This document shows positions 20,580 to 55,207 of a DNA stretch of 64,000 bases, piece by piece. Below the pieces are notes generated by a model, which saw only the letters and a program-made list of their open reading frames with translations, searched no databases and had not been told where the DNA came from. The first letter of the stretch is position 1. Every line of letters starts with the position of its first letter. The translations under genes were made by a program, and so were the position numbers. The DNA comes from Escherichia phage ECp13. The stretch lies in sequence record PP274704.1; one strand, written 5' to 3'.

Positions 20580-20916
20580 AGATGATTTAGATTTAGATCT
20601 AGAAATTATCGATGAATCCCCCTCTTCGGAGGGGGAAGAAGAAAGAAAAGAACGTCTTTTTAATGAATCTCTTAAGATAATTAAATCTGCCATGGAAAAT
20701 GTTATCCAGGAGATTGTTATTAAACTAGAAGACGGTTCTACACACATTGTGTATGTGACAAAATTAGATTGGGTTGATGGAAAAGTCGTAATGGACTTTG
20801 CTGTTCTTGACCAAGAAAGAAAAGCTGAGTTAGCTCCTCATGTAGAAAAATGTATTACAATGCAACTACAAGATGCATTTAATAAAAGGTCAAAGAAAAA
20901 ATTTAAATTCTTTTAA
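20572..20916 (+). CDS. 40: gp40-like head assembly protein (assigned by position)
   Basis: 114 aa from ATG 20572 overlapping uvsX stop; between uvsX and 41. Confidence 0.5.
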   Translation: MNKDDLDLDLEIIDESPSSEGEEERKERLFNESLKIIKSAMENVIQEIVIKLEDGSTHIVYVTKLDWVDGKVVMDFAVLDQERKAELAPHVEKCITMQLQDAFNKRSKKKFKFF

Positions 20917-43589: not shown

Positions 43590-43632
43590 TAAAAAAGTTG
43601 TTTACAAGACTGTTCCTCTGTGGTATTATTAC
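43590..43632 (+). promoter_or_regulatory. Early promoter, near-identical copy of the 16870-16915 cassette
   Basis: aaagttGTTTACaagactgttcctctgtggTATTATtac. Confidence 0.55.
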
Positions 43633-43657
43633 CCTATCAACTACGGAGGAACAGAAA

Positions 43658-43771
43658 ATGAAAAAGATTGTTAAAGCTATATGGAATGTAGTTATAATAC
43701 TAGTAGTTTTGAGTATATTCCCAATCGTTTTAATGATTGATGTATTAAACGCTTACTTTGGATTTATGTGA
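43658..43771 (+). CDS. Hypothetical membrane peptide (37 aa)
   Basis: ATG with GGAGGAACAG SD; single predicted TM helix. Confidence 0.4.
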   Translation: MKKIVKAIWNVVIILVVLSIFPIVLMIDVLNAYFGFM

Positions 43772-43778
43772 GGAAAAT

Positions 43779-43976
43779 ATGAAGCGTAAACGCAGTGCTT
43801 TTACATTTATTGAATGGTTTTTCGATAATATTTTTCCAGCTTTATTCATTTTCATGCTGATTTTTGCCTTAGGTTCAGTTGTAGTTGGAATTTATTTGAT
43901 GGCAGTTGTCGGAATGGACATTCATCAAAATGGCTTAAAATCTGTTGTTGAAACAATTTGGAATGGTGTAAAATAA
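43779..43976 (+). CDS. Hypothetical membrane protein (65 aa)
   Basis: ATG with GAGGAAAA SD; in frame with ORF track 43758..43976. Confidence 0.45.
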   Translation: MKRKRSAFTFIEWFFDNIFPALFIFMLIFALGSVVVGIYLMAVVGMDIHQNGLKSVVETIWNGVK

Positions 43977-44091
43977 TGAATTTACTAAGCATTTGGTTTT
44001 ATATTTTCATGTTTTACGTTGGTGCAAATTTTCCGTATTGGATGGGATGGTCAACAACTGCATTTGGATTTTATACTCCCTGAGGTGAATT

Positions 44092-44307
44092 ATGAAAATT
44101 TTTAAAGATGTAAAAGTTGGTGAAATTTTTTGCTTGGATAGTGGTGATCAGTTAATTCGTATTTCACCTCTTAAGAGCACTAGCGAGAAAATGACAGTTA
44201 ATGCTACTTTAGCAAATAACAGTAATGAACGTTTCTGTATTGAAAACGATACTGAAACTTATACTGTAGAAGAGTTCTGGGAATTGAGCGTCGACTGCGA
44301 CGATTAA
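44092..44307 (+). CDS. Hypothetical protein (71 aa)
   Basis: ORF track; GAGGTGAA SD. Confidence 0.5.
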   Translation: MKIFKDVKVGEIFCLDSGDQLIRISPLKSTSEKMTVNATLANNSNERFCIENDTETYTVEEFWELSVDCDD

Positions 44308-44366
44308 TTTATCGGCCGTGTGTATTCATGCGGCCTTGGAGTAGAAAATAATTAGAGGAAATTAAT

Positions 44367-44822
44367 ATGAAATACATGACTGTTACTGATTTGAATAATG
44401 CAGGTGCTACTGTTATTGGTACAATCAAGGGCGGTGAATGGGTTTTTGGAACTCCACATAAAGACATTTTATCTACACCTGGATTTTACTTTTTAGTGAG
44501 TAAATTTGGTGGTCCATTTGATAGTCCGTGTGTATCTGCACGATTTTATGTAGGTAATCAGCGTTCTAAGCAAGGATTCAGTGCAGTTCTAAGTCATATT
44601 CGTCAGCGTCGGTCTCAGCTTGCGCGTACTATTGCAAATAATAATGTTCCATATACAGTATTTTATCTTCCTGCTTCTAAGATGAAACCTTTGACGACAG
44701 GATTTGGAAAAGGTCAGTTAGCTTTAGCGTTTACTCGTAATCATCATTCTGAGTATCAAACACTTGAAGAAATGAATCGTATGTTGGCTGATAACTTTAA
44801 ATTTGTTTTACAGGCATACTAA
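44367..44822 (+). CDS. ndd: Nucleoid disruption protein Ndd
   Basis: 151 aa; position and length as T4 ndd. Confidence 0.75.
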
Positions 44823-44995
44823 TGAAAGCTCTATTTGTAATGGGTTACCTATTAGTTTTAGCCTTATTCACAGTGACCGGAATCTTTATGGCTTTAGGTC
44901 TACCTCTTAATGATAATGCGGCTGTCGTGATGTGTGTAGGTGGCGGATTTATCTGTTTTGAACGTTTATGCAAAATGTGTGGTGTGTATGAGTAA
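44822..44995 (+). CDS. Hypothetical membrane protein (57 aa)
   Basis: ATG overlapping ndd stop; hydrophobic. Confidence 0.4.
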
Positions 44996-45068
44996 TTTCC
45001 ATAACGAACATGTGATGCAGTTCTATCGTAACAATCTTAAAACCAAAGGCGTCTTCGGACGCCAGTGA
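44988..45068 (+). CDS. stp: Stp peptide (26 aa), activator of host PrrC anticodon nuclease
   Basis: [26 protein letters not shown], 26 codons, next to ac and 52. Confidence 0.75.
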
Positions 45069-45075
45069 GGAAAAT

Positions 45076-45234
45076 ATGAATATCGCAAAATTATTAGGAG
45101 TTATTTCATTTATTTGTTGGATAGTAGCATGTGTTTTAACTATCTGTATCGATGCTAGCAGTGTGTTTTCACAAGCTTTAGCCCAGGGTATGTGTGCATA
45201 TTTAACATTTGTGTTGTTATCTACTAATGATTAA
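45076..45234 (+). CDS. ac: Ac (acridine sensitivity) membrane protein, probable
   Basis: 52 aa hydrophobic ORF with GAGGAAAA SD between stp and 52. Confidence 0.6.
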   Translation: MNIAKLLGVISFICWIVACVLTICIDASSVFSQALAQGMCAYLTFVLLSTND

Positions 45235-45367
45235 GAAAATCTTGGGCTATTCATTAGCCCTTGCTACTTTATTGGTAGCACTATATTATGGAGTAATGTT
45301 CGGATTAATTCAAGTCGTGCTTTTCATTTCTGATGTTATTATGGCACTACATTCACTAGTATGGTAA
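45227..45367 (+). CDS. Hypothetical membrane peptide (46 aa), 52.1 position
   Basis: ATG overlapping ac stop; ends 4 nt before gene 52. Confidence 0.4.
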   Translation: MIKKILGYSLALATLLVALYYGVMFGLIQVVLFISDVIMALHSLVW

Positions 45368-45371
45368 ATTT

Positions 45372-46700
45372 ATGCAACTGAATAATCGCGATTTAAAAAG
45401 TATCATTGATAATGAAGCATTGGCTTATGCTATGTACACGGTTGAAAATCGTGCTATCCCAAATATGATTGATGGATTTAAGCCAGTTCAACGATTTGTT
45501 ATTGCTCGAGCTCTTGATTTGGCACGAGGAAATAAAGATAAGTTTCACAAACTCGCTTCTATTGCAGGTGGTGTAGCAGACCTTGGATATCATCATGGTG
45601 AAAACTCTGCACAAGATGCTGGGGCTTTGATGGCTAATACTTGGAATAATAACTTTCCTTTGTTAGACGGTCAAGGAAACTTTGGTTCTCGTACCGTTCA
45701 AAAAGCAGCGGCAAGTCGTTATATTTTTGCTCGTGTAAGTAAAAATTTCTATAACGTATATAAAGATACTGAATATGCTCCGGTACATCAAGATAAAGAA
45801 CACATTCCGCCTGCTTTCTATTTGCCTATTATTCCTACTGTTCTTCTTAATGGTGTTTCCGGTATTGCAACTGGTTATGCAACTTACATTCTTCCTCATA
45901 GTGTTTCTTCTGTCAAGAAAGCTGTATTGCAAGCTCTTCAAGGAAAGAAAGTAACTAAACCGAAGGTAGAATTCCCAGAATTTCGCGGTGAAGTCGTTGA
46001 AATTGACGGTCAATATGAAATTCGTGGAACATACAAGTTTACTTCACGAACTCAAATGCATATCACTGAGATTCCATATAAGTATGATCGTGAAACTTAC
46101 GTGAGTAAAATCTTAGACCCGCTTGAAGATAAAGGTTTCATTACGTGGGATGATGCTTGCGGTGAGCATGGTTTTGGCTTTAAAGTTAAATTCCGTAAAG
46201 AATACTCTTTGAGTGATAACGAAGAAGAACGTCATGCAAAAATTATGAAAGACTTCGGGTTGATTGAGCGTCGTTCCCAGAATATTACCGTTATTAATGA
46301 GAAAGGAAAACTACAAGTTTACGATAACGTAGTTGATTTAATCAAAGACTTCGTTGAAGTTCGTAAAACTTATGTCCAAAAACGAATTGATAACAAAATC
46401 AAAGAAACTGAATCAGCATTTCGTTTAGCCTTTGCCAAGGCACATTTCATTAAGAAAGTAATTTCAGGTGAAATTGTTGTACAGGGTAAAACTCGCAAAG
46501 AACTGACCGAAGAACTTTCTAAAATTGATATGTATTCTTCTTATGTTGATAAACTAGTTGGAATGAATATTTTTCATATGACTTCCGACGAAGCAAAGAA
46601 ACTTGCTGAAGAAGCTAAAGCTAAAAAAGAAGAAAACGAATATTGGAAAACTACTGATGTAGTTACAGAATACACCAAAGATTTAGAGGAAATCAAATGA
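45372..46700 (+). CDS. 52: Topoisomerase II medium subunit gp52 (GyrA/ParC-like)
   Basis: 442 aa; MQLNNRDLKSIIDNEALAYAMYTVENRAIPNMIDGFKPVQRF matches remembered T4 gp52. Confidence 0.9.
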   Translation: MQLNNRDLKSIIDNEALAYAMYTVENRAIPNMIDGFKPVQRFVIARALDLARGNKDKFHKLASIAGGVADLGYHHGENSAQDAGALMANTWNNNFPLLDGQGNFGSRTVQKAAASRYIFARVSKNFYNVYKDTEYAPVHQDKEHIPPAFYLPIIPTVLLNGVSGIATGYATYILPHSVSSVKKAVLQALQGKKVTKPKVEFPEFRGEVVEIDGQYEIRGTYKFTSRTQMHITEIPYKYDRETYVSKILDPLEDKGFITWDDACGEHGFGFKVKFRKEYSLSDNEEERHAKIMKDFGLIERRSQNITVINEKGKLQVYDNVVDLIKDFVEVRKTYVQKRIDNKIKETESAFRLAFAKAHFIKKVISGEIVVQGKTRKELTEELSKIDMYSSYVDKLVGMNIFHMTSDEAKKLAEEAKAKKEENEYWKTTDVVTEYTKDLEEIK

Positions 46701-46849: not shown

Positions 46850-46880
46850 TAGGGAGAGCCAAGGCTCTCCCTTTTTTATT
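46850..46880 (+). terminator. Intrinsic terminator GGGAGAGCC-AA-GGCTCTCCC plus T6
   Basis: agggagagccaaggctctccctttttt. Confidence 0.7.
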
Positions 46881-55199: not shown

Positions 55200-55207
55200 T
55201 ATTTATA
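55200..55207 (-). promoter_or_regulatory. Late promoter TATAAATA (minus strand) for gene 36
   Basis: plus strand TATTTATA, 24 nt upstream of gp36 ATG. Confidence 0.5.

What the first reader, a model, noticed from the sequence alone, without database searches (positions are those of the whole stretch)
44822..45370. Chain of overlapping micro-genes including the Stp peptide
Four ORFs of 57, 26, 52 and 46 codons are chained by overlapping or abutting start/stop codons between ndd and gene 52. The 26-codon ORF ([26 protein letters not shown]) matches Stp, the T4 peptide that inhibits EcoprrI restriction and thereby releases the PrrC anticodon nuclease. The stp coding sequence itself contains a GGCGUC-UUCG-GACGCC hairpin. 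The flanking hydrophobic ORFs (one probably Ac) are poorly understood.
Basis: partly seen in the sequence, partly recalled or inferred. Interest (0 to 1): 0.5.

Follow-up and report, generated by a model that had tools for sequence, protein, structure and literature searches.

The report
T4-type stp, ac, 52.1 micro-gene chain
This is the well-known ndd-to-gene-52 stretch of a T4-like coliphage: it carries the 26-residue Stp peptide (identical to T4's), the Ac and gp52.1 membrane mini-proteins, and one extra conserved mini-protein that T4 itself lacks, so it is ordinary.

Summary
Four same-strand ORFs of 57, 26, 52 and 46 codons tile 44822-45367 between ndd and gene 52, joined by 1- or 8-nt overlaps or 4-7-nt spacers.

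- **Stp:** the 26-codon ORF is 100% identical to T4 Stp.
- **Ac:** the 52-codon ORF is Ac, with one extra residue compared with T4.
- **gp52.1:** the 46-codon ORF is gp52.1 (DUF7396).
- **ORF57:** the 57-codon ORF is absent from T4. It is a real two-helix membrane micro-protein of unknown function (phrog_5941). It sits directly after ndd in most Tevenvirinae sampled. Its DNA is 96% identical between this Tequatrovirus and Dhakavirus-type phages whose ndd is only 66% identical, so the ORF57-stp module has been exchanged recently.
- **Hairpin:** GGCGUC-UUCG-GACGCC lies at 45048-45063, in stp codons 21-26, and is identical in T4. It is one of 11 C(UUCG)G hairpins on this strand, against about 0.2 expected. 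It is built from rare C-ending codons, with a chance probability of about 8e-5 given the peptide. There is no compensatory covariation, and siphophage Stp homologues keep GVFG without the hairpin.

Everything central is already described for T4. Interest is low.

The parts
44367..44822 (+). ndd (nucleoid disruption protein), upstream neighbour. Its TAA stop overlaps the ORF57 ATG (TAATG).
   Evidence: Pfam PF06591, E = 8e-89. 95% identical to T4 Ndd.
44822..44995 (+). ORF57: a 57-aa two-helix membrane micro-protein, absent from T4 and of unknown function (phrog_5941). Conserved C-terminal motif: F-E-R-L-x-x-x-x-G.
   Evidence: phrog_5941, E = 1.5e-26. No Pfam or NCBIfam match. Found in 219 phage records. 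Sits directly after ndd in 23 of 37 loci compared, and in 2 more behind an intervening Ac-like ORF. AF2 model: helices 2-25 and 31-53, pLDDT 72. E47, R48 and G54 are near-invariant.
44988..45068 (+). stp: 26-aa Stp peptide, inhibitor of the type IC restriction enzyme EcoprrI and trigger of the PrrC anticodon nuclease.
   Evidence: 100% identical to T4 Stp. PF08133, 75.3 bits. phrog_6763. The same peptide occurs in at least 422 phage records.
45048..45063 (+). C(UUCG)G tetraloop hairpin, GGCGUC-UUCG-GACGCC, inside stp codons 21-26. It ends 3 nt before the ac Shine-Dalgarno.
   Evidence: All 132 pair cells are paired in 22 distinct T4-like sequences, with three one-sided G.U changes and no compensatory change. 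Rare-codon argument, P about 8e-5.
45066..45078 (+). stp stop / Shine-Dalgarno / ac start junction, TGAGGAAAATATG.
   Evidence: The stop-plus-SD core TGAGGAAA and the ATG are identical in all 22 T4-like stp sequences, and one sequence (L057) has a single T in the spacer. This holds whichever gene family follows. GAGGAAAATATG is a generic ribosome-binding site of this phage: 10 matches within 1 mismatch against 0.8 expected.
45076..45234 (+). ac: 52-aa Ac membrane protein (acridine sensitivity).
   Evidence: 96% identical to T4 Ac, with one extra Thr. phrog_2501, E = 3.7e-25.
45227..45367 (+). Gene 52.1: 46-aa predicted membrane protein (DUF7396). It has no Shine-Dalgarno of its own, and its start overlaps the ac stop (ATGATTAA).
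   Evidence: PF24129, 81.9 bits against a cut-off of 27. 97.8% identical to T4 gp52.1. Substitutions fall mostly at third codon positions.
45372..46700 (+). Gene 52 (topoisomerase II medium subunit), downstream neighbour.
   Evidence: 99.8% identical to T4 gp52.

Best explanation
The window comes from a T4-like phage (genus Tequatrovirus). The finding is the delayed-early segment ndd - ORF57 - stp - ac - 52.1 - 52.

**Shown here:**
- stp encodes a peptide identical to T4 Stp.
- ac and 52.1 are the T4 genes.
- ORF57 is a genuine, conserved two-helix membrane micro-protein. T4 lacks it, but most other Tevenvirinae carry it immediately after ndd.
- The four genes are packed with start/stop overlaps, and only ac has a strong Shine-Dalgarno.

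**Taken from the literature:**
- Stp binds and inhibits the type IC restriction enzyme EcoprrI. In prr+ hosts this unmasks PrrC, which cuts tRNA-Lys. The phage repairs the cut with Pnk and Rnl1.
- Ac inserts in the inner membrane and makes infected cells accumulate acridines, possibly by blocking AcrAB-TolC.

**Inferred here:**
- The chain is read from one polycistronic early mRNA that starts upstream of ndd.
- ORF57, stp and 52.1 are translated mainly by termination-reinitiation coupling to the gene ahead of them.
- The C(UUCG)G hairpin in the last six stp codons was selected at the RNA level in the T4 lineage. It belongs to the phage's population of inter-cistronic UUCG hairpins.
- It most likely acts as a fast-folding, nuclease-resistant boundary between the stp and ac cistrons. 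That would stabilise mRNA ends and keep the ac ribosome-binding site free of long-range pairing. It probably does not act as a terminator.
- The module boundaries (TAATG after ndd; hairpin plus consensus ribosome-binding site after stp) are also the points where cassettes have been swapped between phage lineages.
For: **Gene identity**
- establish the four genes.
- Stp residues 1-26 are identical to T4's, so residues 4-14 and the N-proximal 18, reported as critical, are intact (PMC3014915).

**ORF57 is a real gene**
- It occurs in 219 phage genomes.
- Its frame and its 57-61-aa length are kept in phages whose ndd is only 45-64% identical.
- Its start lies within about 5 nt of the ndd stop.
- AF2 predicts a helical hairpin.

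**Coupling**
- The overlaps TAATG, ATGAGTAA and ATGATTAA are visible in the sequence, and 52.1 has no Shine-Dalgarno.
- No MotA-box motif lies on the + strand between 40922 and 48610.
- Sigma-70-like promoters lie upstream, from 43601 to 43977. The only 10-of-12 match between there and the terminator after gene 52 lies inside gene 52 (45442-45469) and is not above chance for this scan. A good terminator appears only after gene 52, at 46851-46872.

**Hairpin**
- 11 C(UUCG)G hairpins with stems of at least 6 bp lie on the + strand, against 0.19 expected for both strands.
- Most sit between a stop codon and the next ribosome-binding site or promoter.
- The stp hairpin uses GGC, GTC, TTC and CGC, which are rare here. 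P(all Watson-Crick 6-bp stem | GVFGR peptide and this phage's codon usage) is about 8e-5.
- It is fully paired in 22 distinct T4-like sequences.

**Modular exchange**
- Against Dhakavirus-like L036, nucleotide identity is: ndd 65.6%, ORF57 96.4%, stp plus junction 96.7%, the next gene 47% (a different family), 52.1 89%.
- Dhakavirus phage C6 carries ORF57 at 96.5% aa identity.
- At least three unrelated gene families follow the same stp-hairpin-RBS junction.
Against: - Nothing here shows expression of ORF57, ac or 52.1, or any Stp activity in this phage.
- pnk and rnlA lie outside the window, so the counter-defence could not be checked.
- The hairpin has no compensatory base changes. The three observed changes are third-position transitions that would give G.U pairs anyway.
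- Stp homologues in Kagunavirus and Drexlerviridae phages keep GVFG(K) or GVLGK without any hairpin. One T4-like contig (L060) also lacks it. The RNA element is therefore dispensable for Stp, and its role is unproven.
- GAGGAAAATATG is simply the phage's consensus ribosome-binding site, so its invariance needs no special explanation.
- On the opposite strand the same palindrome is followed by UUUGGUUUU and matches a terminator pattern.
Confidence: 0.85

Rival explanations
1. The hairpin is only a by-product of coding the conserved peptide tail G-V-F-G-R and has no RNA-level function.
For: - There is no compensatory covariation; the only changes are one-sided G.U changes.
- GVFG is conserved in siphophage Stp homologues that have no hairpin.
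- A 6-bp stem that allows G.U pairs arises with P of about 0.04 from the peptide alone.
Against: - The actual stem is all Watson-Crick and uses four rare C-ending codons, with P of about 8e-5.
- It carries the exact C(UUCG)G loop that is about 60-fold enriched on this strand.
- It occupies the same place, just 5' of a ribosome-binding site, as the intergenic copies.
- Deleting the last 8 stp codons only moderately lowers Stp activity (PMC3014915), yet in all 22 distinct T4-like sequences carrying the stp-RBS junction every change at these codons keeps the stem paired. One T4-like contig (L060) lacks both the hairpin and that junction.
Confidence: 0.3
2. The hairpin is a transcription terminator. 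It either works on the sense strand, as annotated by WebGeSTer in two GenBank records, or on the opposite strand, where it would stop antisense or late read-through transcripts.
For: - It is annotated as a 'rho-independent terminator' in OL960580 and is listed as a terminator under the stp match in MK327945.
- On the minus strand the stem is followed by TTTGGTTTTA and passes the terminator pattern scan.
Against: - On the sense strand there is no U-tract (AGUGAGGAAAAU follows).
- ac, 52.1 and the topoisomerase gene 52 lie downstream. Before gene 52 only weak 9-of-12 sigma-70-like matches were found, and no MotA-box motif.
- On the minus strand the nearest late-promoter consensus upstream is about 10 kb away, at 55200. 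The holin gene ends about 4.6 kb away. No antisense transcript is known to need stopping here.
Confidence: 0.12
3. ORF57 is a non-functional remnant or a chance ORF inserted between ndd and stp.
For: - T4 and most Tequatroviruses do without it.
- It is unannotated in JS98.
- It evolves faster than 52.1, with more non-synonymous than synonymous codon changes against JS98.
Against: - It is present in 219 phage genomes of several genera, with intact frame, length and position.
- E47, R48 and G54 are conserved.
- It has its own family profile, phrog_5941.
- A 57-codon stop-free frame is unlikely in DNA of 35% G+C, and full tiling of the interval was seen in 1 of 5000 simulations.
Confidence: 0.05

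Closest known systems
Bacteriophage T4 stp (NP_049878; Pfam PF08133 'Anticodon nuclease activator')
   Same: The 26-aa sequence is identical. The hairpin and the stop/RBS junction are also identical, and the DNA differs at only two synonymous sites.
   Different: In T4, stp starts on the ndd stop codon (TAATG). Here ORF57 is interposed and stp starts inside the end of ORF57 (ATGAGTAA).
T4 ac (NP_049877; acridine sensitivity membrane protein, 51 aa)
   Same: 96% identity, the same position after stp, and the same overlap with 52.1.
   Different: One extra Thr near the C-terminus (…LLSTND against …LLSND). The 52-aa form is the common one among relatives.
T4 gene 52.1 (NP_049876; DUF7396)
   Same: 45 of 46 residues are identical and the position before gene 52 is the same.
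   Different: None of note.
phrog_5941 / 'hypothetical protein' of phage ime09, Dhakavirus C6 and Klebsiella T4-like phages
   Same: ORF57 matches the full 57-position profile. It is 94-96% identical to the ime09, SA21RB and C6 proteins.
   Different: The family has no assigned function and no T4 member. ORF57 is unrelated by profile comparison to two of the neighbouring micro-protein families, 52.1 and GVWxP. ORF57 was not compared with Ac.
C(UUCG)G hairpins of T4 mRNA (Tuerk et al. 1988, as recounted in PMC4371310)
   Same: The same tetraloop with a C-G closing pair, a G+C-rich stem, and a position at a cistron boundary just 5' of a ribosome-binding site.
   Different: It lies inside a coding sequence rather than between genes. 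Its stem is GGCGUC, whereas most other copies in this window have stems of the AAGGGC type.
PeSL cassettes (promoter-early stem-loops) of T4-type phages (PMC2839356, PMC4122927)
   Same: A conserved stem-loop at the boundary where unrelated genes have been swapped.
   Different: No early promoter follows the stem-loop. Only 12 nt, holding the stop codon and the RBS, separate it from the next ATG.

Membership tests
Stp (PF08133, anticodon nuclease activator / type IC restriction inhibitor) | Sequence match above the curated Pfam threshold | tested here: met
   75.3 bits against a cut-off of 25, E = 2e-21, residues 1-26 of 26.
Stp (PF08133, anticodon nuclease activator / type IC restriction inhibitor) | N-proximal 18 residues, including residues 4-14 where loss-of-function mutations cluster, are intact | tested here: met
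   The peptide is identical to T4 Stp over all 26 residues. The criterion is taken from PMC3014915.
Stp (PF08133, anticodon nuclease activator / type IC restriction inhibitor) | Inhibits EcoprrI/EcoR124I restriction and activates PrrC cleavage of tRNA-Lys | not testable with these tools
   This needs a prr+ host or an in-vitro assay. It is inferred from sequence identity only.
T4 Ac (acridine sensitivity protein) | Orthology to T4 ac by sequence and by position between stp and 52.1 | tested here: met
   96% identity over 51 residues. The gene order matches the T4 record. phrog_2501, E = 3.7e-25.
T4 Ac (acridine sensitivity protein) | Confers acriflavine sensitivity on infected cells | not testable with these tools
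   Phenotype described in bioRxiv 10.1101/2025.06.30.662393. Not assayable here.
gp52.1 / DUF7396 (PF24129) | Sequence match above the curated threshold, and position immediately 5' of gene 52 | tested here: met
   81.9 bits against a cut-off of 27. 97.8% identical to T4 gp52.1. The stop lies 4 nt before the gene 52 ATG.
phrog_5941 (ORF57 family, function unknown) | Full-length profile match, about 57-61 aa, two hydrophobic helices, located directly after ndd | tested here: met
   E = 1.5e-26 over positions 1-57 of 57. Helices 2-25 and 31-53. Position conserved in 25 of 37 loci.
C(UUCG)G hairpins of T4 mRNA | UUCG tetraloop closed by C-G on a stable stem | tested here: met
   GGCGUC-UUCG-GACGCC, -10 kcal/mol.
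C(UUCG)G hairpins of T4 mRNA | Inter-cistronic location | tested here: not met
   It lies within stp codons 21-26, though it ends only 2 nt before the stop. Nine of the other ten + strand copies are intergenic or lie at a stop codon.
Intrinsic (rho-independent) terminator | G+C-rich hairpin followed by a U-tract on the transcribed strand | tested here: not met
   On the + strand it is followed by AGUGAGGAAAAU. Only the minus-strand reading (…UUUGGUUUUA) passes the scan.
PeSL (promoter-early stem-loop) cassette | Stem-loop coupled to an early promoter in an intergenic spacer | tested here: not met
   No promoter-like site lies between 45064 and 45076. The spacer is 12 nt and holds the stop codon and the RBS.

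The most novel reading that the evidence does not exclude
The stp 3' end (UUCG hairpin, stop codon and consensus RBS) and the ndd TAATG junction act as portable joints. They let anti-defence and membrane micro-genes be swapped as cassettes between Tevenvirinae genera. ORF57, the ancestral micro-gene that is translationally welded to ndd in most of these phages but lost from T4, would be a membrane partner of the Ndd function, which carries the host nucleoid to the cell periphery, or of the effect on phospholipid synthesis that maps to this deletion interval.
Probability: 0.15. Interest if true: 0.4.

Novelty: already known. Interest (0 to 1): 0.15.

Why it matters
Very little is at stake.

- The Stp-EcoprrI-PrrC-Pnk/Rnl1 arms race is a textbook case, and this phage simply carries the T4 allele.
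- The modest additions are these:
  1. T4 is atypical in lacking a conserved micro-gene after ndd.
  2. The stp hairpin looks selected at the codon level, in a part of the peptide that is largely dispensable.
  3. The ORF57-stp module has moved recently between Tequatrovirus and Dhakavirus.
  4. Unannotated Stp-like ORFs occur in siphophages. One lies next to a polynucleotide kinase gene, which hints that the same defence and counter-defence game is played outside the T4 group.
- How Stp inhibits type IC enzymes is still unknown (PMC12707154). This window offers no new handle on that question.

Tried and rejected
- **Shared ancestry of the micro-proteins.** I tested whether the hydrophobic micro-proteins are diverged paralogues. 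Single-linkage blastp lumped ORF57 with 52.1, and Ac with the 'GVWxP' family. Profile-profile comparison gave probabilities of 2% or less for the three pairs tested (ORF57 vs 52.1, Ac vs GVWxP, ORF57 vs GVWxP). Those links are therefore compositional artefacts.
- **Solved structures.** I looked for solved relatives, for example the AcrB-binding AcrZ as a relative of Ac or 52.1. No PDB sequence match was found for Ac, 52.1, ORF57 or Stp, even at E = 10.
- **Other libraries.** NCBIfam gave nothing meaningful for any of the four proteins. Rfam gave no hit anywhere in the window.
- **Covariation support for the hairpin.** There is none. Pairing is 100% but there are no double changes.
- **The stp/ac junction as a special cassette.** The junction is the phage's generic RBS.
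- **A local middle or late promoter for the chain.** No MotA-box motif lies nearby on the + strand, and no late consensus lies nearby.
- **Wider relatives of ORF57.** The exhaustive search found only 8 short representatives, plus 3 long proteins hit over 20-30-residue stretches that I take as spurious.
- **An ORF57-Stp fusion by frameshifting.** I considered this (stp is in the +1 frame relative to ORF57), but saw no slippery sequence and did not pursue it.

Full report
**What is in the sequence**

Reading 44300-46000 and listing ORFs confirms four consecutive + strand ORFs between ndd (44367-44822) and gene 52 (45372-46700):
- 44822-44995, 57 aa.
- 44988-45068, 26 aa, [26 protein letters not shown].
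- 45076-45234, 52 aa.
- 45227-45367, 46 aa, starting MIKKILGY.

The junctions are as follows:
- ndd / ORF57: TAATG.
- ORF57 / stp: ATGAGTAA.
- stp / ac: UGA, then a 7-nt spacer, with the GAGG Shine-Dalgarno overlapping the stop.
- ac / 52.1: ATGATTAA.
- 52.1 / gene 52: a 4-nt spacer.

The four ORFs cover 98.2% of the interval. Only 1 of 5000 Markov simulations of the segment reached 95% coverage. The hairpin GGCGTC-TTCG-GACGCC is at 45048-45063.

**Identity of the genes**

The window is a T4-like phage of genus Tequatrovirus. Megablast of 1.2 kb hits 575 phage records, mostly Tequatrovirus, with a best identity of 98%. Over 24 kb the best identity is about 97%. The T4 record reads ndd - stp - ac - 52.1 - 52.

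Against T4:
- Stp is 26/26 identical, with two synonymous DNA differences.
- Ac is 96% identical, with one extra Thr.
- gp52.1 is 45/46 identical.
- gp52 is 99.8% identical.

Family searches agree:
- Stp: PF08133, 75 bits against a cut-off of 25; phrog_6763.
- gp52.1: DUF7396, 82 bits against a cut-off of 27.
- Ac: phrog_2501.
- Ndd: PF06591.

**The 57-codon ORF is the only element without a T4 counterpart**

In T4 the stp ATG sits on the ndd stop. Here 166 nt are interposed. ORF57 matches phrog_5941 end to end (E = 1.5e-26). It has no Pfam or NCBIfam family.

tblastn finds it in 219 phage records:
- About 21 records are at 90% identity or more (ime09-like Tequatroviruses and Dhakavirus C6).
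- About 15 are near 70% (the JS98 group).
- The rest are T4-like phages of Klebsiella, Serratia, Raoultella and Erwinia, at 37-56%.

In 37 loci spanning ndd to gene 52, 25 carry it. In 23 of these it begins within a few nucleotides of the ndd stop. In the other two (L022, L023) an Ac-like ORF lies between ndd and ORF57. In contrast, stp occurs in only 16 of the 37.

The recurrent architecture is ndd - ORF57 - (an Ac-like or a 'GVWxP' micro-gene) - 52.1 - 52. Stp is an addition in Tequatrovirus and the Dhakavirus-like group. T4 and most Tequatroviruses have lost ORF57.

Other properties of ORF57:
- Its alignment keeps E47, R48 and G54.
- AF2 gives a helical hairpin, helices 2-25 and 31-53, pLDDT 72.
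- An exhaustive search of 1.8 billion representatives finds only 8 short relatives.
- It is unannotated in JS98.

By profile-profile comparison, none of the three family pairs tested is related: ORF57 vs 52.1, Ac vs GVWxP, and ORF57 vs GVWxP. None of ORF57, 52.1 and Ac has a relative among solved structures. gp52.1 is under clear purifying selection, with 12-14 third-position changes against 0-2 second-position changes. ORF57 evolves faster.

**Mosaicism**

Nucleotide identity between the window and Dhakavirus-like L036 is uneven across the chain:

| Segment | Identity |
|---|---|
| ndd | 65.6% |
| ORF57 | 96.4% |
| stp plus junction | 96.7% |
| following gene (a different family) | 47% |
| 52.1 | 89% |
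| gene 52 | 80% |

Phage C6 is a Dhakavirus with ORF57 at 96.5% aa identity. So the ORF57-stp module has been exchanged recently, with breakpoints at the gene junctions.

After the stp stop, the stop-plus-SD core TGAGGAAA and the ATG are the same in all 22 distinct T4-like sequences. One sequence (L057) has a single T in the spacer. This holds although the next gene belongs to at least three unrelated families. That sequence is simply this phage's consensus ribosome-binding site: 10 matches within one mismatch, against 0.8 expected.

**The hairpin**

- It is identical in T4.
- The window has 11 C(UUCG)G hairpins with stems of at least 6 bp on the + strand, against 0.19 expected on both strands.
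- Nine of the other ten lie between a stop codon and the next RBS or promoter. The stp copy holds the equivalent place but, because stp is so short, falls within its last six codons.
- In 22 distinct T4-like stp sequences every pair cell is paired. Three pairs change on one side only, to G.U, and none changes on both sides. So there is no covariation evidence.
- The codons used (GGC, GTC, TTC, GGA, CGC) have frequencies of 0.14, 0.08, 0.26, 0.29 and 0.15 in this phage. Given the peptide GVFGR, an all-Watson-Crick 6-bp stem has a probability of about 8e-5, or 0.04 if G.U pairs are allowed.
- According to the literature, deleting the C-terminal 8 codons of stp only moderately reduces activity (PMC3014915).

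Against an essential RNA role:
- Stp homologues in 42-59-kb siphophage genomes and contigs keep the GVFG(K) tail with no hairpin.
- One T4-like contig (L060) lacks the hairpin.

As a terminator:
- On the sense strand no U-tract follows, so it is not a canonical terminator, although WebGeSTer annotations call it one.
- On the opposite strand it matches the terminator pattern. However, no late promoter lies within about 10 kb upstream on that strand.

My reading, which is inference, is that the hairpin is a selected mRNA structural boundary of the same class as the phage's other UUCG hairpins.

**How the parts work**

- **Stp (literature).** Stp inhibits the type IC enzymes EcoprrI and EcoR124I but not the type IA enzymes. 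In prr+ cells this unmasks the PrrC tRNA-Lys anticodon nuclease, with GTP hydrolysis, dTTP and unmodified DNA as co-factors. T4 Pnk and Rnl1 repair the tRNA (PMC3014915). The way Stp inhibits is still unknown (PMC12707154).
- **Ac (literature).** Ac is a 51-aa membrane protein. Its loss gives acriflavine resistance, and its expression sensitises E. coli. Interference with AcrAB-TolC has been proposed (10.1101/2025.06.30.662393; PMC13250531).
- **The whole interval (literature).** The T4 deletion saΔ9 removes 52.1 through denB. It is viable, and it abolishes the stimulation of phospholipid synthesis seen after infection (PMC6071114).
- **Transcription (inferred here).** No MotA-box motif lies on the + strand between 40922 and 48610. 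Sigma-70-like sites lie from 43601 to 43977. A good terminator appears only at 46851-46872. This is consistent with one polycistronic early transcript and with translational coupling through the overlaps.

**Verdict**

The genes are known T4 genes plus one catalogued hypothetical family, so novelty is 'already known'. The small new points do not change the picture. They are: the loss of ORF57 from T4, the codon-level selection of the stp hairpin, the recent ORF57-stp exchange, and the Stp-like ORFs in siphophages.

Noticed in passing
L009:3183-3315 and L012:3351-3483 (JS98, Dhakavirus): There is a second stp copy without a start codon, 96% identical to T4-type Stp over residues 2-25. It is fused behind a frameshifted N-terminal fragment of gene 52.1. 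The junction lies at the shared GAGTAAT (…TATTACGGAGTAAT…), which looks like an illegitimate-recombination scar. This copy keeps the hairpin and the RBS and is followed by a GVWxP-family micro-gene.
   Followed up: partly
L080:2501-2578 (Kagunavirus MH051334); L081:2483-2575 (Drexlerviridae P817, MZ826699); contigs L047, L048, L050, L051, L053, L059, L062, L063, L074: Unannotated Stp-like ORFs occur in 42-59-kb siphophage genomes and contigs ([14 protein letters not shown](H/N)[10 protein letters not shown]; in P817, [30 protein letters not shown]). They have their own RBS, their stop overlaps the next ATG, and they have no hairpin. In P817 the ORF lies about 760 nt downstream of a polynucleotide kinase gene.
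   Followed up: partly
L058, L061 and L076 (metagenome contigs): These ORFs share the exact Stp N-terminus [12 protein letters not shown] but have unrelated C-terminal halves (…YRKRIKEQMLSRKE; …WRHRVKNFEKYRHEWK…). The one in L058 is followed by a terminator-like hairpin. The genomic context was not examined.
   Followed up: no
window + strand: 3701, 6068, 7338, 12050, 13994, 20617, 25883, 36731, 42011, 42240; window - strand: 55235, 51196: C(UUCG)G hairpins are strongly enriched, mostly with AAGGGC…GCCCUU stems. They sit right after stop codons and are followed by an RBS, a TGCTTTA (MotA-box-like) motif or a -10-like sequence, which makes them resemble PeSL cassettes. The copy at 20617-20636 (TCCCCCTCTTCGGAGGGGGA) lies inside a 121-codon open frame.
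   Followed up: partly
L002:2278-2433 (phage vB_EcoM-101117BS1); also contigs L064, L065 and L068: An additional Ac-like micro-gene (MKFVHGIAFFCW…, about 40% identical to Ac) is inserted between stp and ac. It reuses the same hairpin-RBS junction and brings its own GAGGAGAATATTATG in front of ac.
   Followed up: partly
L011:3029-3241: This Dhakavirus-like contig has lost most of gene 52.1. The GVWxP micro-gene runs on as a 70-aa ORF, and only the last 15 codons of 52.1 are recognisable.
   Followed up: no
window 44312-44336: A 5-bp GGCCG/CGGCC stem with a 12-nt loop lies between ndd.1 and ndd. It is annotated as a rho-independent terminator in OL960580 but has no U-tract.
   Followed up: no
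window 44996-45000 with 45069-45073: In the minimum-free-energy fold of 44980-45090, UUUCC in stp codons 3-5 pairs with the GGAAA of the ac ribosome-binding site (z = -2.4). Both sides are invariant, so this cannot be tested by covariation.
   Followed up: no
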